Shown in pieces: positions 6,995-14,656 of a stretch of 26,007 nucleotides of DNA (positions are counted from its first letter, which is position 1; every line of letters starts with the position of its first letter). The notes beneath the pieces were generated by a model. The model had not been told where the DNA came from and searched no databases. It worked only from the letters and a program-made list of their open reading frames with translations. The stretch is taken from the NCBI GenBank assembly GCA_001805895.1, contig MHHD01000008.1, forward strand, positions 1-26,007, written 5' to 3'. Origin of the DNA: Omnitrophica WOR_2 bacterium RIFCSPLOWO2_12_FULL_51_8 (GTDB lineage: Bacteria > Omnitrophota > Gorgyraeia > Gygaellales > Profunditerraquicolaceae). A program made the translations under genes and the position numbers.

Positions 6995-7050
6995 TTTGCC
7001 AAATTATTTATCTCAACGCCCCCTGCCTCATTTTTAATCCCTTCCGCAAA

Positions 7051-7085
7051 ATCCCAGGCCTTTAGGCCGAGGGGGCTCCACTTCA
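7051..7085. other. Small hairpin resembling an IS200/IS605-type end remnant
   Basis: ATCCCAGGCC-TTTA-GGCCGAGGG. Resemblance to IS605 subterminal hairpins is from recall; no transposase nearby. Confidence 0.3.
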
Positions 7086-7131
7086 TCGTTGTTTAATGTT
7101 GCGGTGATGATTTTCTAGAAGATCCATTTTC

Positions 7132-7207
7132 AGGGTTCGCGTCCACGACTACTCAAGGAAAAACTTACCTTACTTCTCTTCTGACGGTTCACCTAAAAAT
7201 CTGGCGG
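7132..7207. mobile_element. L element copy 4 (att-like cassette end)
   Basis: AGGGTTCGCGTCCAC-39 nt-GGTTCACCTAAAAATCTGGCGG; same 39-nt spacing as copies at 12577 and 13878. Confidence 0.85.
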
Positions 7208-7208
7208 C

Positions 7209-7361
7209 TTACTTCACCGCGTCTGGCGAAATGCGGACGGTTTTGCCGTTTTCCCATACCGCAAGCGGGCGGCCCGTCTTCTTATGCCGCTCCACAACTT
7301 GCCGCACCGCTTTTTTTAACGCCGCCTCTGCTTTATCCTGCAAAGACATCCGTTTTTTCAT
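7209..7361 (-). CDS. 50-aa basic partner of zeta-like ATPase
   Basis: MKKRMSLQDKAEAALKKAVRQVVERHKKTGRPLAVWENGKTVRISPDAVK*. ATGA overlap with the upstream gene; its stop abuts the L element. Confidence 0.78.
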   Translation of the reverse strand: MKKRMSLQDKAEAALKKAVRQVVERHKKTGRPLAVWENGKTVRISPDAVK

Positions 7362-7939
7362 TGATGCCTCGCGCTTTTTTGAACCGCCTCAAATAATTCC
7401 TTGTTAACAATCTCTCTATGCCAGTTCTTTCTTTTCGCAATCAATATAGGCCTTGCCTTTGAATTATCAAACAACATCCAAGAATCAAGCAAGGGATCAT
7501 ATAGATCGAAGAAATTATTAATTCCGCGGGTAAAACGCCTGCGCACATCTTCAGCAGGAACATAATGCCCGCCTTCTACAACCCTGTCTTTAATACGCGC
7601 GATTGCGAGTCCGGGGCTGGGGATCCAAAGAAAGAATAGATGCAGCGCGTAGCCTTTCTTTTTGAACTCCTCTAGCAAGCTTACGTAGGATTTACCGGAT
7701 AAAGTAGTTTCAAATGCAAAATCAACGCCCCGTTTCGCATATTCGTGTATTTGCTGCAATACGAGTTTGCCGGCTTTAATGGCGGCAGCGCGAGGCTCAA
7801 ACGGAGCTAATCCTTGAGCGATCAGGTCGGCATTGACAAAATTCGGACAATTCACGTAATCAGGTAAAAACATCCTGGCAAACGTCGTCTTGCCCGATCC
7901 GTTAGGTCCCGCAATAATGTAAACTGCCTTGTTATTCAT
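7358..7939 (-). CDS. Zeta-toxin-like P-loop ATPase/kinase
   Basis: IAGPNGSGKTT Walker A, VNADLIA, FAFETTLSG, RV..GGH.VP..DVRRR. Confidence 0.85.
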   Translation of the reverse strand: MNNKAVYIIAGPNGSGKTTFARMFLPDYVNCPNFVNADLIAQGLAPFEPRAAAIKAGKLVLQQIHEYAKRGVDFAFETTLSGKSYVSLLEEFKKKGYALHLFFLWIPSPGLAIARIKDRVVEGGHYVPAEDVRRRFTRGINNFFDLYDPLLDSWMLFDNSKARPILIAKRKNWHREIVNKELFEAVQKSARHQ

Positions 7940-7995
7940 AAGCGCCTTTACCGCTCAAGGAACTTTACCAGATATAATCGTAGAACTCGCCTGAG

Positions 7996-8151
7996 CGTCA
8001 ACAATGAGGGGTAGTCGTGGGGCAGGCTAACCCCCTACAACCCTTTGAGATACCGCTACTTATAAAAATTTATAAGAAACGCGGTGTGGGCTGGCAAATT
8101 TCTCTGGGCGAACCCATCAACCCTACCCTCCGCAAGAAAACGTGCCATTAA
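7996..8151. mobile_element. R element copy 3 (diverged)
   Basis: CGTCAACAATGA + GGGGTAGTCGTGG...CTTATAAAAATTTATAAG...GCGAACCCATC; colinear with copies at 9772 and 12650. Confidence 0.8.
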
Positions 8152-8164
8152 AAGCAAAGAATGA

Positions 8165-8362
8165 TTATCCAGTAGTAGATGGGATAAATCCAAATATCTT
8201 TGTCTTATCCTTTATTACGATTTTCTTTACCACAGCAACAATTTTAGTCCCATCGTTCTCAAAATATTCCAATTTATCCCCTGAAGATACTGCTCCACCG
8301 CTCACCGTCCCTTCAAAAACAATGCCCCTGCCATGAATCCCAAAAATATCCTTTACCTCCAT
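8165..8362 (-). CDS. 65-aa protein resembling EF-Tu domain II beta-barrel, possibly truncated
   Basis: EVKDIFGIHGRGIVFEGTVSGGAVSSGDKLE resembles the V.DVFSI.GRGTVVTG.V..G.V..GD.V pattern. Confidence 0.55.
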   Translation of the reverse strand: MEVKDIFGIHGRGIVFEGTVSGGAVSSGDKLEYFENDGTKIVAVVKKIVIKDKTKIFGFIPSTTG

Positions 8363-8384
8363 CCTGCTATTAATAGCATCCTAC

Positions 8385-8444
8385 AGGGTTCGCGTCCACT
8401 ACAACTCACGCCCAAAATAGCTATGGCTCTCGTCCGTCAACCTC
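8385..8444. mobile_element. L element copy 3 (right half degenerate)
   Basis: Exact AGGGTTCGCGTCCAC at 8385-8399; the right half is reduced to CGTCAACCT. Confidence 0.7.
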
Positions 8445-8455
8445 GCCGGAGAAGG

Positions 8456-9589
8456 TCATAACCATTGATCGAGATGCGTAACACAATCAACAAACGGCGC
8501 TATCTCAACGCCTCGGTCATGCCACCGGCGATGTCCGAGATAAAGCAGACAAGTCTTTGCTTCCTTAAAATCCTCGCGGAATCGCCGTAAGGCGCCGAAA
8601 TCATCGGGGCGGATCTTCTCAGCCATTTTGATTTCAAAAGCGCGCAAACCTCGTTCGCCATACAGCACAAAATCCACCTCATCCGCCGTGGCTGTCCGCC
8701 AGTAATGCAAGCGATACCCCAAATTTTTGTAGTCGTTGATAGCGCGCGCTTCCTGCAAAAAAAGGGTCTCGAGCGCCGCTCCGTGTATTTCTTCCGGGGC
8801 ATCCAGTGACCCGCGCGGGCGGATAGCCTGAAATACTCCGGTGTCGAAGTAATAAAACTTGGGGTGCGTAATGAGTCTCCGTTTGACGCGCTTGGTAAAA
8901 ACCGGCAGGCGGATGGCAATCAATAAATCCTCAAGAATGCTGAAATAGTCTTCGACGACTTTGGCCGACACGGCGCACTCGCGGGCCACGGCCGCCATAT
9001 TGAGCAATCCGCCTTGGGAAAAGCTGGCGGCTTCCAGAAAACGGCTGAAGGCGCTGAGGTTACGGGCGAATCCTTCTTGTTGGACCTCTTCGCGCAGATA
9101 GGTGGCAGCGTAACTTTTCAGATAACCTTCTGGCTTGGCGCTCGTACAGGCCAGCGGCAGACCACCGTAACGAAGGGCGCGTTTGAGATCAAAGTCCTTG
9201 CCCAATTCCAACGCTGTCAGGGGATGCATATGATACGTCAACGCACGACCTGCCAGCAAGTTAACACCGCGGCGGCGTAACTTGCGCGCGCTTGATCCGG
9301 TCAGCGCGAATTGTAAGCGCCGCGACTCAATTAAACGGTGCGCTTCATTCAGCAATTCCGGCACGCGTTGGACCTCATCTAGAACTACCCAGCCCTTGTA
9401 ATCCTGGGGAATTCTTTCTCCCAACCGTGTCGGTTCAGCCAGCAGCTCGCTATAGATCCGGTAATCCAGCAAATCAAAAAAGAGCGCTCTGGGAAATTGA
9501 TCGTGCAGCCAGGCGGTCTTGCCTACTCCGCGGGGCCCGAACAGAAAGAAGCTCTGCCGCCTAGGGGGTTTGAGCAATCGTGCATACAT
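8456..9589 (-). CDS. AAA_14 ATPase with C-terminal DUF4143-like domain
   Basis: FGPRGVGKT, LDEVQ, LTGSSAR, LAGRA, KFYYFDTG, EVDFV...FEIK. Confidence 0.88.
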   Translation of the reverse strand: MYARLLKPPRRQSFFLFGPRGVGKTAWLHDQFPRALFFDLLDYRIYSELLAEPTRLGERIPQDYKGWVVLDEVQRVPELLNEAHRLIESRRLQFALTGSSARKLRRRGVNLLAGRALTYHMHPLTALELGKDFDLKRALRYGGLPLACTSAKPEGYLKSYAATYLREEVQQEGFARNLSAFSRFLEAASFSQGGLLNMAAVARECAVSAKVVEDYFSILEDLLIAIRLPVFTKRVKRRLITHPKFYYFDTGVFQAIRPRGSLDAPEEIHGAALETLFLQEARAINDYKNLGYRLHYWRTATADEVDFVLYGERGLRAFEIKMAEKIRPDDFGALRRFREDFKEAKTCLLYLGHRRWHDRGVEIAPFVDCVTHLDQWL

Positions 9590-9771
9590 AAGTCTTTTTT
9601 ATCATAAAAAAATGACTTGTCAAGTAATTTTTACATAATCTATCAAAGGCATTCTTTTCTTCTATTGCCCCATTTTTAACAAACTACTGCATTAATTTTG
9701 ACTGCTGTCAAATTTACTCGCAAGTAAATTTCCCTGTCCACGCAACGCCCCACGCCCTCTACTTGGCCACT

Positions 9772-9960
9772 CGTCAACAATGACGGGTAGTCGTGGACGA
9801 AAGTCGAACCCTGCAACCCATTGAGATACCGTTACTTATAAAAATTCATAAGAAACATGGTGTGGGCTGGCTAATCGCCCTAGACGAACCCATCTTCAAT
9901 AAACCTACAAAAACCAAAGAACCGACAAACCCAGAGCCATACTGCGACTATGTTATTTAG
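9772..9960. mobile_element. R element copy 2
   Basis: CGTCAACAATGA + CGGGTAGTCGTGGACG-n5-CGAACCCT...; 177 nt colinear without gaps with 12650-12826. Confidence 0.85.
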
Positions 9961-9986
9961 CTTGACCTTTAATCTAGGTTAGAAAT

Positions 9987-10988
9987 TTATTTATACAACC
10001 TCAACTCCATCTGACTACTCTCAATCTTTACTGCGTCACAACCATCCTTTAGTAAATCACGATAAAGCTCCTTTATGACATCCTTTTCAGTGCCTTCGTC
10101 AACGAACCTCAACGCAGAAGCAGCAAGATATGTCCTGTCTTTCTCAAACGCAATCCACTTGCGGTCAAGGACCTCGGCAGCCTCGCCAGACGTATTAGAA
10201 CCAGCAAAAAAATCCAGCACCAAATCCCCAGGGGCAGTCAAAAACTTAATGAAAAACTCAGGAAGCTGCCTTGGAAACCTTGCAGGATGAGGATCGGCAC
10301 CGACAAGCTTGCAAAAACGCAAATACTTAGAATTGCTCTCCGAATTGGAAATCTGCAAAAGATTAGAAGGAATAGCACCCCCATTCCCGTTAGGAATCCC
10401 AAAACTCTTAGAAATATTATGCCCAGAAGGACGCTCCTTCGGTGTATAAAACTTCTCGCTATTCTTCAACAACTCCTTCATGCGCTCAGAATACGGAACC
10501 AACACCCTCGAAACATCGGCATTAGGAAACTCCGACTTAGAAAACCACCAGACAGTATTCACCGAATCCTTAGCCCTAATCTTCCTCTTATTCACCCACT
10601 CAATCGGCGATGGCAGCTTAGACGGGTTATGCCAAAAAAACTCCTCAGCCAAGAAAAAGCCAAGCTCGTCACAAAAACGCACAAGTACCCTGAAATTATA
10701 AAGTGACCTAGTCGGCCTGCCCTTCTCGTAAGCACCACCCAAATCCAAAACAAAACTCCCATCTTCCCTCAACACCCTAAAGACTTTCCTGCCAAAAGCC
10801 ATCAACCAATCAACATAATCCTCCTGAGACTCATTCCCATACTCCTTCTTGCGCTGCAAGGCAAAGGGCGGGGAAGTTACCACCAGATTAACGCTGTCCG
10901 CAGCAAGGCAATCAAGAAGCTCCAGCGAATCACCCACAAACGCCCTGCCATGCTTCGTCTTATATACTGGAACAGGCAAATTACTCAT
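9987..10988 (-). CDS. Site-specific DNA methyltransferase, beta class, probably N4-cytosine, M.PvuII-like
   Basis: TSPPFALQRKKEYGN (motif IV), NPSKLPSPIEWVNKRKIR, HPARFP, DFFAGSNT (motif I). ATG at 10988 preferred over the track's TTG at 11015. Confidence 0.92.
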   Translation of the reverse strand: MSNLPVPVYKTKHGRAFVGDSLELLDCLAADSVNLVVTSPPFALQRKKEYGNESQEDYVDWLMAFGRKVFRVLREDGSFVLDLGGAYEKGRPTRSLYNFRVLVRFCDELGFFLAEEFFWHNPSKLPSPIEWVNKRKIRAKDSVNTVWWFSKSEFPNADVSRVLVPYSERMKELLKNSEKFYTPKERPSGHNISKSFGIPNGNGGAIPSNLLQISNSESNSKYLRFCKLVGADPHPARFPRQLPEFFIKFLTAPGDLVLDFFAGSNTSGEAAEVLDRKWIAFEKDRTYLAASALRFVDEGTEKDVIKELYRDLLKDGCDAVKIESSQMELRLYK

Positions 10989-11022
10989 GACAAAAAAATC
11001 CTCTCCTCTAACCAAGCCGGGC

Positions 11023-12477
11023 TCAATATATTTCGAGGTTGCCGACCCAACTCGAAAGAATCTTCCACAAAACAGTCACGGCAAAATAAACCTCTTTATC
11101 CTTATCCTTCAAGTCTTCAATCTCGGCGACAAGCTTCTCCTGCTTCTGCGTGCCAACAACCCAGGCAACCCACTTCCTCGCCCCATCATCAGCCATGACA
11201 GAAAGTAAATCCTTGACAGAGAAATTTCCGCTCTTGCTTAAAGCCCATGAAATACCGGCTCTCACATCCTCGCTCCCCTTCGGAAAATACTTGATGATTT
11301 CCTTGCCGAACAAGCCGGAAAGCCTAAACAAAGCACGGGCAGACTCAGACCGCACACCCAAATCAATATCATCAAAGACAGAAACCAAGGCGTCAAGCGC
11401 AACCTTGTTCTTAAGCTCGCCCAAAGCCCAGGCAGCACCAGCCCTGATCTCTGAATGCTGAGCCTTATCAAGCAAGACTTCGATTAGAAGTCTGCATGAG
11501 ACATCGCTACAAATTTCTCCAAGAATAATCACACACTCCAAACGATTCTCCAAATATTCATCAGCCAAAACAGACTTAAAGAAATCTACGCTGTCACTAA
11601 AGCCCATCTTCAAAAGGCTAGCCGCAGCCTCCAAACGGATATATATGTGGTCTCTTGCGTCGCCAGTCTTCTTGACCAGGGCTCCATGAATATCCGCCCC
11701 CTTAAAAAACGACAACGCTTTTGCTGCGCCGTAGCGATCACTCAAAGAAGCGCTCCTAATCATCCTAACGTAATCCCTGGCTTCCATGCCCTTACCACAG
11801 TCAAAACTCGTCGAAACAGGAACGACGCTTGCCAAAATCTGATCTTCAACAAAAACGTCCCCAGCCTTCACAAGAGGCTTAAGTCTGATACCCTTCTTCT
11901 CCAAGGCAAGACTGATAAGCCTGCCATCACCTCTACGCTTTAATTTAAGCCGTTCCTTGCCAACCTCCACGACTTCGCCTGCGCAACTGGCAACTGCGCT
12001 AGGCCAGGTAATCCTTGCCTCAAAGCCCTCCTCAGTGCCCTTCGGTTTCTCCCAAAAAACCTTCTTGTCAACAACAGCAGCCCTCAAAGGCTTAGCCGAC
12101 ACATACTGAACAAACCCGGAAGCAGCCCAATCAACAGGCTCAGTCCCAATCTTGCTACACTTCACAAAAGCAACCATGTCGCCATCATCCAAACCAAAAT
12201 CCCATCCTCGCTCAGGACTGACAACGCTATGCGACATCGTCACAAGCAGCTTAGTCTTAGCCCTCGACTCAACCCTCCTGCCACAGCCAACGCATAAGAC
12301 ATCAGGAACTCGCACCCTCTTAATTTTGATTTCCTTCCAAATCTTAAAGCTCATACTGCCACGTTCAAGCTCAACAGGACGATGCCCAAGCCGCTTCAAA
12401 TCCTCAAAAACCCTCCTCGTGCCAGTAGCGCCAATAGAAATCTTTTCTAAAAAACTCACATCCGTCTTAAAAGCCAT
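11023..12477 (-). CDS. Putative restriction endonuclease: N-terminal PD-(D/E)xK-like region plus C-terminal HEAT repeats
   Basis: VPDVLC...VESRAK in the N terminus; repeated helical units (RYGAAKAL, RLEAAASL, RAGAAWALGEL, RSESARAL); directly upstream of the methylase. Confidence 0.6.
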   Translation of the reverse strand: MAFKTDVSFLEKISIGATGTRRVFEDLKRLGHRPVELERGSMSFKIWKEIKIKRVRVPDVLCVGCGRRVESRAKTKLLVTMSHSVVSPERGWDFGLDDGDMVAFVKCSKIGTEPVDWAASGFVQYVSAKPLRAAVVDKKVFWEKPKGTEEGFEARITWPSAVASCAGEVVEVGKERLKLKRRGDGRLISLALEKKGIRLKPLVKAGDVFVEDQILASVVPVSTSFDCGKGMEARDYVRMIRSASLSDRYGAAKALSFFKGADIHGALVKKTGDARDHIYIRLEAAASLLKMGFSDSVDFFKSVLADEYLENRLECVIILGEICSDVSCRLLIEVLLDKAQHSEIRAGAAWALGELKNKVALDALVSVFDDIDLGVRSESARALFRLSGLFGKEIIKYFPKGSEDVRAGISWALSKSGNFSVKDLLSVMADDGARKWVAWVVGTQKQEKLVAEIEDLKDKDKEVYFAVTVLWKILSSWVGNLEIY

Positions 12478-12576
12478 AACAAAAAAATCCTTTCTCTAAA
12501 AAGAAACGATGACCTTTTCAAAAAGTTTTCGTACTCAAGTTTTTATTTACACTCATAAGCATCTCTTTTCCAGCTC

Positions 12577-12826
12577 AGGGTTCGCGTCCACAATTACTGT
12601 GCGCAAAATTGCTTTTGCTTCTCGACGGATGGTTCACCTAAAAATCTGGCGGGTAGTCGTGGACGGTAGGCGAACCCTACAACCCCTTGAAATACCGTTA
12701 CTTATAAAAATTTATAAGAAACGCGGTATGGGTTGGCTCATCGCCCTAGACGAACCCATCTTCAATAAACCTGAAAAACCTAAAGAACCAAAACAGTTAG
12801 AGCCTAACTATAATTATGCCATCTAA
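12577..12826. mobile_element. Complete L|R junction (attP-like composite site)
   Basis: L copy 2 (12577-12652) fused to R copy 1 (12653-12826); GGTTCACCT (12631) and AGGCGAACC (12668) are inverted about the GT at 12653-12654. Confidence 0.85.
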
Positions 12827-12838
12827 CAGCATTTTGCC

Positions 12839-13279
12839 TTAAAAAAGTTCCTTAGAATTAACGTTATAATTGATCATCAGCCAAGAATCGCCATACTTCT
12901 TCAAAACAAAAGAATCTGTAGATTCGCCTTTTTCATGGATTACCGTATACTGAACGCTAAAATATACTCCATCTGGGGCATAGTTAAGTCGCCAAGCGCC
13001 CTTCTTCCGCTCCTTAGCAATACCTAATTTCCCCCAAACGCCGTTCATTATCTTATCAAAACTTTCGCGGGGGCCACTCTTTTTGAATTTTTCATCAGCC
13101 ATCGAATCAAACATGTAGCCAAAATCTTGTTTATTGTAATGGTCATAGAAGCTTGCAATGAATTTTTCAACAGATGGCGTGAATTTACTGGCATTTAAAA
13201 AGGCGAAGCCACCAAAAACAACAAATAAAATTATTATTACCAAAAACGTAATTCCTAGACCAATAAAGAATTTCTTCAT
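12839..13279 (-). CDS. Membrane-anchored hypothetical protein (146 aa)
   Basis: N-terminal hydrophobic helix, then a soluble alpha/beta domain ending in SFVLKKYGDSWLMINYNV; GGAGG RBS. Confidence 0.75.
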   Translation of the reverse strand: MKKFFIGLGITFLVIIILFVVFGGFAFLNASKFTPSVEKFIASFYDHYNKQDFGYMFDSMADEKFKKSGPRESFDKIMNGVWGKLGIAKERKKGAWRLNYAPDGVYFSVQYTVIHEKGESTDSFVLKKYGDSWLMINYNVNSKELF

Positions 13280-13292
13280 TCTTGCACCTCCT

Positions 13293-13859
13293 CTATTTAT
13301 TCCGCAGATCGTTTACTATTTGGTAAACTTTTTCTGCATCTTTAATATCGTAAAAGGTCGGAACATCCTTCCCATAGAATGACGCAAAAAAATCCATACC
13401 GGTATTTTCATACATGCCCACCATAAATGAAGGGTTGCCAAATTTAACGGCACCTATTCCATTCGATCGAACGCTCTTGTTAATACACGGCAAAGTATTA
13501 ATGTATGCCGCTTGGATGTTTTCACCAAATAAGCTGGTCACAATTAATACTCGCTTATCAGTTACGGCATACCATGTTCTTTGCTTCTTCCACTTTTTAT
13601 AAAAAAATCTCCCAAAGATAGAATACAGGCCAATTAATACAAATGGGATACCAAATAACGCAAAAAATATTGGCGCGCCTTGCCCTGCCTTGTCCTTCAT
13701 AAAAAGGACAGAGGACTCCCAAAATATGGCGAACCCTCCCCACAATAAACTAAAAGGCACAAGAAAAACGTCAGACGCAGAAAACAGGATATTTGCTTCC
13801 GGCTGGCCTTTCCATAAAATTGATTCATCTTTTAGCAATTGCTTTTGCAGAACATCCAT
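13293..13859 (-). CDS. Two-TM membrane protein with bacterial PH-like C-terminal domain (188 aa)
   Basis: E.ILWKGQP, two TM helices, YAVTDKRVLI. ATG at 13859 preferred because the track's GTG at 13892 lies inside the L element. Confidence 0.75.
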   Translation of the reverse strand: MDVLQKQLLKDESILWKGQPEANILFSASDVFLVPFSLLWGGFAIFWESSVLFMKDKAGQGAPIFFALFGIPFVLIGLYSIFGRFFYKKWKKQRTWYAVTDKRVLIVTSLFGENIQAAYINTLPCINKSVRSNGIGAVKFGNPSFMVGMYENTGMDFFASFYGKDVPTFYDIKDAEKVYQIVNDLRNK

Positions 13860-13877
13860 ATAATTAACCCTTTCTCT

Positions 13878-13955
13878 AGGGTTCGCGTCCACGACAACCT
13901 AAGCAAAAAACGCAAGCGGCTGTCGTCGGACGGTTCACCTCAAAAACTGGCGGGT
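13878..13955. mobile_element. L element copy 1, joined to a tRNA-like half-site
   Basis: AGGGTTCGCGTCCAC-39 nt-GGTTCACCTCAAAAACTGGCGGGT. Confidence 0.85.
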
Positions 13956-14001
13956 TATTAGGGATTCGAACCCTCTCGCCTGCGCCAAAGATCTTTTCAA
14001 A
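13948..14001 (-). pseudogene. tRNA-like 3' fragment (T arm, acceptor strand, CCA) directly downstream of tRNA-Leu
   Basis: Minus strand: TTTGAAA-AGATC-14 nt-GAGGGTTCGAATCCCTA-ATAACCC-G-CCA; no matching 5' half. Confidence 0.55.
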
Positions 14002-14085
14002 TGCCGGGGGAGGGATTTGAACCCTCACACTCTTACGAGCGGCGGATTTTAAGTCCGCATTGTCTGCCAGTTCCAACACCCCGGC
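14002..14085 (-). tRNA. tRNA-Leu(TAA), CCA not encoded
   Basis: GCCGGGG/CCCCGGC acceptor stem, GCGGA-CTTAAAA-TCCGC anticodon arm, long variable arm, GAGGGTTCAAATCCCTC T arm. Confidence 0.97.
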
Positions 14086-14092
14086 AAAAATA

Positions 14093-14656
14093 CTAATATT
14101 TTACTGTTAAAAGCCTATCCAGATCGCCGGCGATACGTGGATTTTGGGCCTCGGCAGATATCTCCTGGGCCCAGTTTTTAAGATACCCTATATCCAGTCG
14201 CCCTTTATGCCGCATAATTATTTTTTCCGCATCCGCCAGATCCTGAGGCCTGCCCGGAATTATCTTTAAGAGCACCATATCCTCCGGCGTGGGAAAAAAT
14301 GCATTGGTATTATAAAGCCTGAAGGTTTTTTTTCTTTTAAATGCCTGGCGCTCCAGTTCAATGGAGGCAATAATAAAATCAACGTGGAATGCCCCATATT
14401 GTATCTGGAATGTACCTGTGGCCAGGGCCTTCTGCCGGCACTCTTGAGCATTAAATCTAAACCCAGCTTTTTTTGCCTTACTTAAAAAAACGGGTATTTG
14501 CTCTGCTTCTAACAGTATATCGATATCTACATCTCCCGTAGCCCTTGGTTCTCCTAAAAGCCCTACCGCGATTCCTCCGATAACTATATATTCGTATCTT
14601 TCTTTATTTAAAAAACCCGCTACCTTTTTATAAACATCTTCCACTAAGATTTTCAT
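14093..14656 (-). CDS. Nucleotidyltransferase (DUF6036-like)
   Basis: IGGIAV...PRATGDVD, PEDMVLLK...RPQDLAD. ATG at 14656 overlaps the upstream TGA (ATGA). Confidence 0.85.
   Translation of the reverse strand: MKILVEDVYKKVAGFLNKERYEYIVIGGIAVGLLGEPRATGDVDIDILLEAEQIPVFLSKAKKAGFRFNAQECRQKALATGTFQIQYGAFHVDFIIASIELERQAFKRKKTFRLYNTNAFFPTPEDMVLLKIIPGRPQDLADAEKIIMRHKGRLDIGYLKNWAQEISAEAQNPRIAGDLDRLLTVKY

What the first reader, a model, noticed from the sequence alone, without database searches (positions are those of the whole stretch)
8008..12826. R element keeps a reading frame: a peptide tail that becomes attached only across the junction
Seen on the plus strand: R1 (12650-12826) and R2 (9784-9960) are both 177 nt, gap-free and stop-free, 43/58 aa identical, and end at the same codon (TAA versus TAG). 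They differ at 7 synonymous and 15 non-synonymous codons. R3 keeps the frame (LQPFEIPLLIKIYKKRGVGW) through an apparent compensating -2/+2 indel. L copies read GFAST(T/I)T...VHLK(I/N)W into the junction, giving WRVVVDGRRT with R but WRVIRDSNP with the tRNA-like half. Established: some integrases contain attP within their gene, so integration swaps the C terminus (Myxococcus phage Mx8). Inference: L and R are the 3' end of an ancestral recombinase gene whose tail is switched by recombination. The synonymous excess is modest, and DNA-site spacing could explain part of the conservation.
Basis: partly seen in the sequence, partly recalled or inferred. Interest (0 to 1): 0.72.

Follow-up and report, generated by a model that had tools for sequence, protein, structure and literature searches.

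The report
Small gene starting inside a recombination site
The conserved reading frame in the R repeat is real, but it belongs to a small gene that starts just inside the recombination junction of recombinase-less cargo cassettes stacked at a tRNA end; no evidence was found that it is a recombinase tail switched on by recombination.

Summary
R1 and R2 are gap-free 58-codon frames, 43/58 aa identical, with 7 synonymous and 15 non-synonymous codon differences and a shared stop position.

R is coding. It occurs in 54 of 234 genomes of the order (Omnitrophota by Atlas and record names). Only this frame is open. pN/pS is 0.35 in frame against 0.83 and 1.39 out of frame, and a second subfamily gives 0.34.

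- None of 27 copies has a long upstream frame.
- R matches the N-terminal part of a family of about 250 small proteins. The long members (120-190 aa) add a ParB/KorB-type HTH domain, and several start with ATG where R has GTG, 9 nt inside R.
- L is 75 nt, palindromic and non-coding.
- The junction TGG|CGG is the reverse complement of a tRNA CCA end. In relatives L abuts tRNA-Ser.
- In relatives, intact large serine recombinases end at Trp-478, encoded by that TGG, and read on into antisense tRNA. So recombinase tails do change there.
- Only recombinase 3' stubs, never an intact gene, read in frame into R.

This scan had already noted the cassette array on this window.

The parts
12650..12826 (+). 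R1. Its first ~27 nt (CGGGTAGTCGTGGACGGTAGGCGAACC) form a tRNA-3'-end-like recombination half-site. A small ORF runs from GTG 12659 to TAA 12824-12826 (55 aa, short form, subfamily A).
9784..9960 (+). R2, with the same architecture. The ORF runs from GTG 9793 to TAG 9958-9960 (55 aa). The codon just before R is TGA, so nothing can read in from upstream.
8008..8151 (+). R3, a diverged copy of the ..WQISLGEPIN.. subfamily. GTG is at 8017 and the stop follows 47 codons counted from 8008. It carries a -2/+2 indel pair in the half-site and is preceded by TGA.
12575..12649 (+). L copy fused directly to R1. It is a 75-nt non-coding end piece ending in GGTTCACCTAAAAATCTGG.
7130..7204 (+). L copy, separated from R3 by an 800-bp insert carrying a zeta-toxin-like gene.
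8385..8462 (+). Degenerate L copy. Only its first ~50 nt are recognisable.
13876..13950 (+). L copy next to the tRNA-like fragment. It has an in-frame TAA and the best hairpin of the window copies (z -1.86).
12647..12652 (.). Junction core TGG|CGG, the reverse complement of the discriminator plus CCA of a tRNA. The same core is at 7202-7207 and 13948-13953.
13951..13990 (-). tRNA 3' fragment (GGGTTCGAATCCCTAATAACCCG, followed by CCA). It has no 5' half. It is the short-spaced half-site joined to the last L.
14001..14086 (-). Intact tRNA-Leu(TAA) flanking the array.
12839..13892 (-). Cargo of the cassette R1..L(13876): two ORFs of 146 aa and 199 aa without a clear family.
9987..12477 (-). Cargo of the cassette R2..L(12575): an N6/N4 DNA methylase (342 aa) and a HEAT-repeat protein (484 aa).
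8165..8362 (-). Cargo of the cassette R3..L(8385): a 65-aa ORF with no family.
7208..8007 (-). Insert of a second class between L(7130) and R3. It carries a zeta-toxin-like P-loop protein (193 aa) and a 50-aa ORF. Its right end is GTCAACAATGAG.
8463..9783 (-). Insert of the second class between L(8385) and R2. It carries a DUF4143/AAA_14 ATPase (377 aa). Its right end is GTCAACAATGAC.

Best explanation
R is the tRNA-distal end of small cargo cassettes that carry no recombinase. The cassettes are stacked head to tail at the CCA end of a tRNA or tRNA fragment in an Omnitrophota genome.

**What R holds.** R has two overlapping functions.
1. Its first ~27 nt are a recombination half-site that mimics a tRNA 3' end: TGG|CGG...GCGAACC.
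2. From a GTG 9 nt inside R it encodes its own 55-aa protein.

**The protein.** It is the short form of a small, uncharacterised family. Long members of 120-190 aa have the same N-terminal beta-hairpin segment (..EI.LL[IV]K.YR[KR]R..G..I[SA]L.[ED]P) followed by a ParB/KorB-type HTH DNA-binding domain. Purifying selection on this gene explains the conserved frame.

**L.** L is the non-coding, palindromic 75-nt tRNA-proximal end. L-end plus R-start form an attP-like imperfect inverted repeat, GGTTC-N17..N17-GAACC. In the tRNA half the GAACC motif lies 5 bp closer to the junction, as in an attB.

**Inferred mechanism.**
- A large serine recombinase supplied in trans moves the cassettes as circles that carry an L|R joint.
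- The R gene has no room for its own promoter or ribosome site between the crossover and its start codon. Its expression signals must therefore come from whichever arm recombination joins to it.
- Its product acts on DNA or on the recombinase at the site.

**Recombinase tails.** Recombinase ORFs of relatives do run across this junction and change their tails. R is not such a tail.
For: **Shown**
- R has protein-type conservation in one frame only, replicated in subfamily B.
- The stop position is shared by all ten intact 58-codon copies.
- Two copies in locus L047 carry in-frame insertions of 7 and 8 codons.
- No long upstream ORF exists in 27 copies, and R2 and R3 are preceded by TGA.
- The R peptide aligns with the N-terminal part of 120-190 aa proteins. 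A profile built from these finds only 256 proteins in 1.84 billion, none longer than 341 aa among the 150 listed.
- Long forms begin MDSEH, MGS, MTV, MDAKR or MDE at the position of R's GTG-GAC.
- All 10 intact 58-codon copies have GTG at codon 4, as do 17 of 26 copies of 52 codons or more (the others include long forms, aligned differently, and three short forms with GTA or GTT).
- The long-form model (pLDDT 90.7) shows an N-terminal beta-hairpin and a helical domain. The helical domain matches ParB, Noc and KorB DNA-binding domains. Atlas clusters carry HTH_ParB and are mostly Omnitrophota.
- The layout R-cargo-L|tRNA-Ser recurs in relatives.
- Large serine recombinases abut the same TGG|CGG junction with tRNA-Ser in 20 loci.
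- Half-site spacing, counted from the sequence: GGTTC at -19..-15, GAACC at +23..+27 in R, and GAACC at +18..+22 in the tRNA-like half.

**Inferred**
- Mobilisation in trans.
- Junction-dependent expression.
- The role of the protein.
Against:
- The Shine-Dalgarno match upstream of GTG is weak (GGCGGG).
- GTGGAC is also part of the DNA half-site, so its conservation is not clean evidence for a start codon.
- Three otherwise intact copies have GTA or GTT there (L020, L062, L023).
- About 40% of R copies are truncated or frame-shifted.
- Copies in different genomes may have inherited the selection signature from master elements rather than being selected in place.
- The cognate recombinase of L|R is not identified. 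The Ser-type recombinase clade has a different end sequence (GCnCCnTWTC..TGG) and was not found in this genome, which is 63% complete.
- Relatives' tRNA-Ser reads CGG-AG where R reads CGG-GT. The exact crossover dinucleotide is therefore unresolved.
Confidence: 0.6

Rival explanations
1. R is the alternative C-terminal extension of a recombinase whose gene spans attP. In the excised form, or at an L|R-type joint, the recombinase is extended in frame by the R module. In long forms the extension is a beta-hairpin plus a ParB-type HTH domain. After integration the recombinase reads into antisense tRNA instead. R's frame is conserved because it is translated as that tail.
For: - Ser-type large serine recombinases read TGG as their conserved Trp-478 and continue across the crossover.
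- R's frame is in phase with that Trp codon.
- Recombinase 3' fragments run in frame into R in P0104, P0124, P0055, L113, L111 and L010, and into a long form in P0003.
- Several long-form ORF calls carry upstream ..W extensions.
Against: - Every such fusion is a stub of 25-197 recombinase codons without the catalytic domain. None is intact in 234 genomes, in the metagenome pattern scan, or in the listed hits of the 1.84-billion-protein search.
- Intact recombinases carry arbitrary tails of 3-90 codons, so a defined tail is not needed.
- The phase match has a 1-in-3 chance and is fixed by sequence, so it does not count as repeated independent events.
- In the one tRNA-Gln example the recombinase frame of contig C75 is out of phase with the long-form gene of L078.
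- The end sequence of this recombinase clade is not the inverted partner of R-start.
- Intact R ORFs persist next to unrelated flanks and behind stop codons.
Confidence: 0.1
2. The R frame is not translated. R is a truncated relic of the 5' end of a long-form gene. It is kept because the DNA serves as a recombination arm, holding accessory binding sites and the spacing between them.
For: - The first 27 nt are conserved as DNA, not as codons. The variable positions fall in codons 6-7 at all three codon positions.
- Many copies are truncated.
- The short forms lack the HTH domain.
- R contains an A/T-rich palindromic stretch (first-reader note e1-5283846).
Against: - Substitutions are three-periodic, with pN/pS of 0.28-0.41 even in the subfamily-specific tail (codons 41-58).
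- The stop position is conserved.
- The same signal appears in two subfamilies.
- Binding-site conservation does not produce an excess of synonymous change in one frame.
Confidence: 0.17
3. The array is an integron-like or tyrosine-integrase island. L|R would be an attC-like or core-type site, and the cassettes would be moved by a tyrosine recombinase.
For: - Cargo genes are co-oriented in short cassettes.
- The joints are palindromic.
- tRNA 3' ends are classic targets of tyrosine integrases (general knowledge).
- One cassette locus has a tyrosine recombinase about 7 kb away, at G137:C15.
Against: - No integrase lies in the window. The only strong tyrosine recombinase in the genome is a 297-aa open frame on another contig.
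- L and R occur separately, unlike attC sites.
- Identity with the tRNA is only about 6 nt (TGGCGG).
- Serine recombinases sit at exactly this junction in 20 related loci.
Confidence: 0.05

Closest known systems
SCC / pseudo-SCC composite islands of staphylococci (large serine recombinases CcrAB/CcrC; from general knowledge)
   Same: Cargo cassettes, some lacking a recombinase, are stacked head to tail at the extreme 3' end of one conserved gene. Each is bounded by short repeats of the integration site. Serine recombinases move them in trans.
   Different: The target here is a tRNA CCA end, not rlmH. The cassettes are far smaller (0.4-2.9 kb). The arms are long and conserved (75 nt and 177 nt). 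One arm holds a gene start. No Ccr relationship was tested.
Integrase genes that contain their own attP: Myxococcus phage Mx8 intP and SSV1-type archaeal integrases (tyrosine recombinases; the latter are reviewed in a paper listed, PMC8371274, which was not read)
   Same: In relatives of this window a recombinase ORF crosses the crossover, so integration changes its C-terminus.
   Different: The enzymes here are large serine recombinases, and only the residues after Trp-478 change. In the window itself there is no recombinase, and R is a separate gene.
attP/attB half-site geometry of large serine integrases (zinc-ribbon motif about 5 bp further out in attP than in attB; general knowledge of LI/A118 integrase structures)
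   Same: In L-end and R-start the GGTTC/GAACC motif lies equidistant, 22 nt either side of a centre at positions +4/+5 of R. In the tRNA half it lies 5 nt closer.
   Different: This rests on spacing only. No binding or recombination was shown, and the central dinucleotide is not the same in all partners.
ParB/KorB/Noc HTH DNA-binding domain proteins (PF17762)
   Same: The helical domain of the long-form relatives matches these folds.
   Different: There is no CTPase or ParB N-terminal domain. The R short form lacks the HTH entirely and keeps only the N-terminal hairpin segment.
Integron gene cassettes
   Same: Short cassettes with co-oriented cargo are separated by palindromic joints. The cargo includes defence and toxin-antitoxin-like genes.
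   Different: No IntI is present. The joints fall into separable L and R halves. There is no GTTRRRY core. The array is anchored at a tRNA end.

Membership tests
Large-serine-recombinase attachment sites | A large serine recombinase gene at or near the site | tested here: inconclusive
   None lies in the window. The genome has two on other contigs, one reading into antisense tRNA-Gln. The Ser-type clade was not found in this 63%-complete genome. In relatives, 20 such genes abut the same TGG|CGG junction.
Large-serine-recombinase attachment sites | attP is an imperfect inverted repeat of about 50 bp around a 2-nt crossover | tested here: met
   At 12631-12676, GGTTC lies at -19..-15 and GAACC at +23..+27 relative to TGG|CGG. 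That gives 22 nt either side of the centre (sequence).
Large-serine-recombinase attachment sites | The outer motif lies about 5 bp closer to the centre in attB half-sites | tested here: met
   GAACC is at +18..+22 in the tRNA-like half at 13951-13972 and in the tRNA-Ser of relatives.
Large-serine-recombinase attachment sites | Identical central dinucleotide in attP and attB | tested here: inconclusive
   R and the window's tRNA-like half both read CGG-GT. The tRNA-Ser of relatives reads CGG-AG. Only TGGCGG is common to all partners.
Large-serine-recombinase attachment sites | Recombination between the sites by the enzyme | not testable with these tools
Recombinase gene spanning its own attP (tail switched by integration) | The recombinase reading frame crosses the crossover point | tested here: not met
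   This holds for the window. There is no recombinase. L's frame has a stop in 1 of 3 window copies and in 8 of 19 listed overall. At most 62 codons are open upstream of any R. The feature is met in relatives for the Ser-type recombinases reading into tRNA.
Recombinase gene spanning its own attP (tail switched by integration) | An intact recombinase that ends in the R sequence in some configuration | tested here: not met
   Only stubs were found, of 341 aa or less and without a catalytic domain.
ParB/KorB-type HTH proteins (PF17762) | A helix-turn-helix DNA-binding domain of the ParB type | tested here: not met
   The R short form ends before the domain, and Pfam and NCBIfam give no hit. The long-form relatives do have it by fold and by Atlas. 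Their own Pfam scores are below threshold.
Integron cassettes | An IntI-type integrase and a complete attC after each cassette | tested here: not met
   No integrase lies in the window. L and R halves occur apart from each other.
Known RNA families | A match to an Rfam model in R or L | tested here: not met
   Only the three tRNAs reach threshold in the window.

The most novel reading that the evidence does not exclude
A large serine recombinase whose C-terminal module is attached and detached by its own reaction.

- In the excised (attP) state, the 478-aa enzyme would be extended in frame by the R module: a beta-hairpin, plus a ParB-type HTH domain in long forms.
- Integration would cut the module off.
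- The module would then be made separately from its internal start at the other end of the element.

The enzyme would thereby sense and lock its own recombination state. The recombinase-less cassettes would be decayed descendants of such elements.
Probability: 0.1. Interest if true: 0.8.

Novelty: new variant of a known kind. Interest (0 to 1): 0.45.

Why it matters
It shows that a repeat that looks like a mere attachment-site scar hides a conserved small gene whose start codon sits 9 nt from a recombination crossover. Whatever is joined there by recombination must supply the gene's expression signals.

It also defines a cassette system at tRNA CCA ends in the uncultured phylum Omnitrophota. 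The system carries defence and toxin-type cargo. It comes with serine recombinases whose coding sequence runs across the crossover.

If the small protein proves to be a recombination accessory factor, it would add a new family to the very heterogeneous set of directionality factors known for serine integrases.

Tried and rejected
- **Rfam.** The window scan gave only tRNAs. The conserved flank beside the recombinase units gave nothing credible, so the tmRNA or ncRNA idea was dropped.
- **R or L as a true tRNA.** Reading either as a tRNA T-arm and acceptor does not work. ARAGORN finds none and the stems do not pair.
- **Integron attC idea.** Rejected because L and R occur as separate halves.
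- **Promoter and terminator scan.** Results over 7000-14100 were at chance level.
- **Recombinases near the loci.** tblastn with the genome's own two serine recombinases against all fetched loci found only the tRNA-Gln overlap. Recombinase searches in five genomes with arrays found none adjacent.
- **Co-occurrence.** By my own tally, genomes with R and genomes with the Ser-type recombinase clade overlap about as often as chance predicts. This was not used as evidence.
- **Complex prediction.** Recombinase residues 140-480 with the R short form gave no verdict.
- **An error of mine.** I first thought the window's L copies differ by a 4-nt indel. They are all 75 nt.
- **Literature search.** One search gave no paper on a serine integrase gene spanning attP at a tRNA end; an earlier call was malformed.


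Full report
**1. The observation**

- R stands at 8008, 9784 and 12650.
- L stands at 7130, 12575 and 13876, with a degenerate copy near 8385.

R1 and R2 are 177 nt including the stop and align without gaps.
- They share 143/174 nt and 43/58 residues.
- They differ at 7 synonymous and 15 non-synonymous codons.
- They stop at the same codon.

R3 keeps the frame after what reads as a -2/+2 indel pair, then stops after 47 codons.

The three clear L copies are each 75 nt and read ..GFAST.T...VHLK.W in the frame that enters R. The copy at 13876 has an in-frame TAA. WRVIRDSNP is read at the L|tRNA-like joint.

**2. R is coding**

R and L have no other copies in this genome. They are widespread in relatives.
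- DNA matches occur in 33 of 201 genomes of the family.
- R-peptide matches occur in 54 of 234 genomes of the order.
- Two database records and the Atlas clusters place these sequences in Omnitrophota.

Ten distinct intact 58-codon copies, from the window and 8 other loci, stop at the same codon; TGA also occurs at that position in a frame-shifted copy (L013). The other five frames carry 2-8 stops in every copy.

| Measure (ten intact copies, codons 4-58) | Claimed frame | Shifted frames |
|---|---|---|
| Minimum substitutions at codon positions 1/2/3 | 29/23/49 | not computed |
| Pooled pN/pS, subfamily A | 0.35 | 0.83, 1.39 |
| Pooled pN/pS, subfamily B (..ALISLGEP..PYNKGILS..) | 0.34 | 0.90, 1.56 |

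Sources are for subfamily A and for subfamily B.

Two copies in locus L047 carry in-frame insertions of 7 and 8 codons.

**3. R is not the end of a longer gene**

I extended the frame upstream in 27 copies.
- The frame is open for 0 to 62 codons, through unrelated sequence.
- R2 and R3 are directly preceded by TGA.

The R peptide weakly matched the N-terminal part of ORFs of about 145-190 aa in related genomes. An alignment confirms the homology..I.LL[IV]K.YR[KR]R..G..I[SA]L.[ED]P.

A profile search of 1.84 billion representative proteins found only 256 members.
- Nearly all are 50-200 aa.
- In the 120-190 aa members the R-like segment is N-terminal.
- Several long forms begin with ATG where R has GTG-GAC: MDSEH.., MDAKR.., MDE.., MGS.., MTV...
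- All 10 intact 58-codon copies have GTG at codon 4, and 17 of 26 copies with 52 or more open codons do; the remainder includes long forms aligned differently and three short forms with GTA or GTT.

The long form folds with high confidence (pLDDT 90.7).
- It has a short beta-hairpin, which is the R-equivalent part.
- A proline-rich linker follows.
- A helical domain follows that. Its best structural matches, about 40 in a row, are ParB, Noc and KorB DNA-binding domains. All are at weak E-values.
- The Atlas assigns HTH_ParB to the nearest clusters.

R therefore encodes the start of a gene that reads into the cassette. In the window it is a 55-aa short form without the HTH domain.

The first nine codons behave as DNA rather than as codons. 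GTCGTGGACG and CGAACC are fixed, and the five bases between them vary at all codon positions.

**4. What the junction is**

TGG|CGG is the reverse complement of the discriminator plus CCA.
- In relatives the usual layout is chromosome|R-cargo (0.5-1.2 kb)-L|tRNA-Ser. L touches the 3' end of tRNA-Ser(GGA) or tRNA-Ser(GCT).
- In the window the last L touches a tRNA 3' fragment that has no 5' half. It lies next to tRNA-Leu.

Counting from the junction gives the half-site spacing.

| Element | Motif | Position |
|---|---|---|
| L-end | GGTTC | -19..-15 |
| R | GAACC | +23..+27 |
| tRNA halves | GAACC | +18..+22 |

So L|R is an attP-like inverted repeat, 22 nt either side of a centre. The tRNA half has the shorter, attB-like spacing. 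Another first-reader note (e1-5283847) proposed this, and my counts agree.

Identity between partners is only TGGCGG. That fits a serine recombinase better than a tyrosine recombinase. The central dinucleotide is unresolved, because relatives' tRNA-Ser reads CGG-AG where R reads CGG-GT.

**5. L is not coding**

- Its W frame holds a stop inside the 25 codons in 8 of the 19 copies listed, including the window's copy at 13876.
- Its middle differs completely between copies yet always forms a hairpin.
  - GTCCACAATTAGTGTGGAC plus a T-run is one version.
  - CTCAAG..CTTGAG, GCAAAA..TTTTGC and AGCCAAA..TTTGGCT are others.
  - A second small stem covaries between CCTCC/GGAGG and CCTTC/GAAGG.
- Single-strand folds give z-scores of -2 to -4.8 in relatives. 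The window's copies at 7130 and 12575 give no excess stability.

**6.

Four predicted proteins found by the profile are C-terminal fragments of large serine recombinases. They run in frame through ..PYPCW|RVVVD.. into R (P0104, P0124, P0055) or through ..RQKW|LPTMDSEH.. into a long form (P0003).

Using the recombinase part as a query found many intact recombinases in the order.
- They are 70-84% identical to one another across genera.
- Each has Trp-478 encoded by the junction TGG.
- Each reads on into antisense tRNA-Ser, as WRRGRDSNPG.., or into other tRNAs.
- The extra tail is 3 to 90 codons.

The window's own genome has a different 530-aa serine recombinase whose last 16 codons overlap antisense tRNA-Gln. 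In this group of elements the recombinase C-terminus is indeed written across the crossover.

Every recombinase|R joint is only a stub: L082, L084, L085, L111, L113 and L010. Three searches found no intact recombinase reading into R.
- A pattern scan of the metagenome collection gave 3 hits.
- A pattern scan of 234 genomes gave 1 hit.
- The protein search found no fused ORF above 341 aa among its listed hits.

Other points weigh against R being a functional tail.
- The tails of intact enzymes are arbitrary, so a defined tail seems unnecessary.
- The phase agreement between Trp-478 and R's frame is fixed by the sequences. It does not count as repeated independent evidence.
- The end sequence of this recombinase clade (GCnCCnTWTC....TGG) is not the mirror of R-start. 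Its own partner is an inverted copy of itself (section 8).
- The enzyme that moves L|R cassettes remains unidentified.

**7. Mechanism, with status**

*Shown*
- The cassette architecture.
- The coding status of R and its family.
- The non-coding nature of L.
- The tRNA-end junction.
- Serine recombinases at the same junction in relatives.

*Inferred*
- Cassettes move as circles with an L|R joint, through a serine recombinase supplied in trans. This resembles recombinase-less SCC-type cassettes.
- Arrays arise by repeated integration or by homologous recombination between arms.
- Only about 9 nt separate the crossover from the R start codon. Promoter and ribosome-binding signals must therefore come from the partner arm, so R expression should depend on the junction.
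- The R protein acts at the site, on DNA or on the recombinase. I found no direct support for this last step. A complex prediction gave no verdict.

**8. Surroundings**

- *Second insert class.* Two inserts sit exactly between an L and an R, at 7208-8007 and 8463-9783. Both end in GTCAACAATGA[GC]. The first starts with a half-site-like CGGCTTACTTCACCGCGTCTGGCGAAA. This agrees with first-reader note e1-5283843.
- *Cargo.* It is defence or toxin-like.
  - A zeta-toxin-like protein.
  - A DUF4143 ATPase.
  - A DNA methylase with a HEAT-repeat protein.
  - Nucleotidyltransferase toxin-type genes to the left.
- *Recombinase units.* The Ser-type recombinase gene is bracketed by an inverted copy of its own last ~100 nt.
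  - The copy lies just upstream of the gene's start and is nearly identical within each locus.
  - This gives a 1.6-kb unit with terminal inverted repeats, set between a tRNA 3' end and a second tRNA-like end.
  - Solo stubs of that end lie next to many tRNA genes, often at contig ends.

**9. Verdict**

- The reading-frame conservation is real and stronger than first judged.
- The proposed meaning, a recombinase tail attached across the junction, is not what R is in this window. It remains a low-probability reading for ancestral or excised forms.
- The system is a new variant of serine-recombinase cassette islands, with an uncharacterised small gene family embedded in the attachment arm.

Noticed in passing
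L086-L105 (e.g. L087:328-1953, L094:332-1950): A highly conserved clade of 478-aa-core large serine recombinases, 70-84% identical to the reference sequence across genera. Each gene is bracketed by an inverted, near-identical copy of its own last ~100 nt. This gives a 1.6-kb unit with terminal inverted repeats. It is inserted between the CCA end of tRNA-Ser or tRNA-Ala and a second tRNA-like end. It looks like a minimal recombinase-only mobile element.
   Followed up: partly
L039:974-2592 (own genome, contig C75): A 530-aa large serine recombinase whose last 16 codons overlap antisense tRNA-Gln(CTG). An XRE-type HTH gene precedes it. This is an example, in the same genome, of a recombinase ORF crossing a tRNA-end junction.
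   Followed up: partly
L114-L133 (contig starts in about 20 related genomes): Solo stubs of 32-55 codons from the recombinase 3' end lie directly against tRNA 3' ends (Ser, an Ala-like tRNA, and others). Many contigs begin inside them. This suggests repeats or population heterogeneity that breaks assemblies.
   Followed up: partly
window 7205-8007 and 8463-9783: A second class of insert sits exactly in L|R joints. Both examples end in GTCAACAATGA[GC]. The first begins with CGGCTTACTTCACCGCGTCTGGCGAAA, which has the same spacing as the R half-site but no ORF.
   Followed up: partly
window 7204-7220 (minus strand): On the minus strand, the A-run of the L end becomes a U-tract directly after a hairpin formed by the neighbouring half-site. 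This gives a terminator-like site. In relatives the same U-tract follows the tRNA-Ser 3' end, so L may supply a terminator for the tRNA or for cargo transcripts.
   Followed up: no
L083:260-7285 (record JYNY01000616): A long-form gene, fused in frame to a recombinase remnant, is followed by large defence cargo. The cargo is an OLD-type TOPRIM ATPase plus a UvrD helicase (Gabija-like) and a ResIII/RE_endonuc protein.
   Followed up: no
L047 (G228:C4), R copies at about 50 and 2911: In-frame insertions of 7 and 8 codons (..TLPRRQAGLQPLE..) lie just after the half-site part of R.
   Followed up: no
L019, L020, L028 next to L or R: Another repeated hairpin element (GCACTCCGCTCGCT....CGCTCGCTTGAGTGCCG) takes the place of the tRNA or of L beside some L and R copies.
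   Followed up: no
window 9987-12477: An N6/N4 DNA methylase is paired with a 484-aa HEAT-repeat protein instead of a recognisable restriction enzyme.
   Followed up: no
L106:7356-7600 and equivalents in L087, L089, L092, L094, L098: A conserved G+C-rich stretch (..ACCGCGCCTGTCGGCGCTCCCACATCTCCCG..) lies beyond the recombinase unit's tRNA-like flank. It has no Rfam match.
   Followed up: partly
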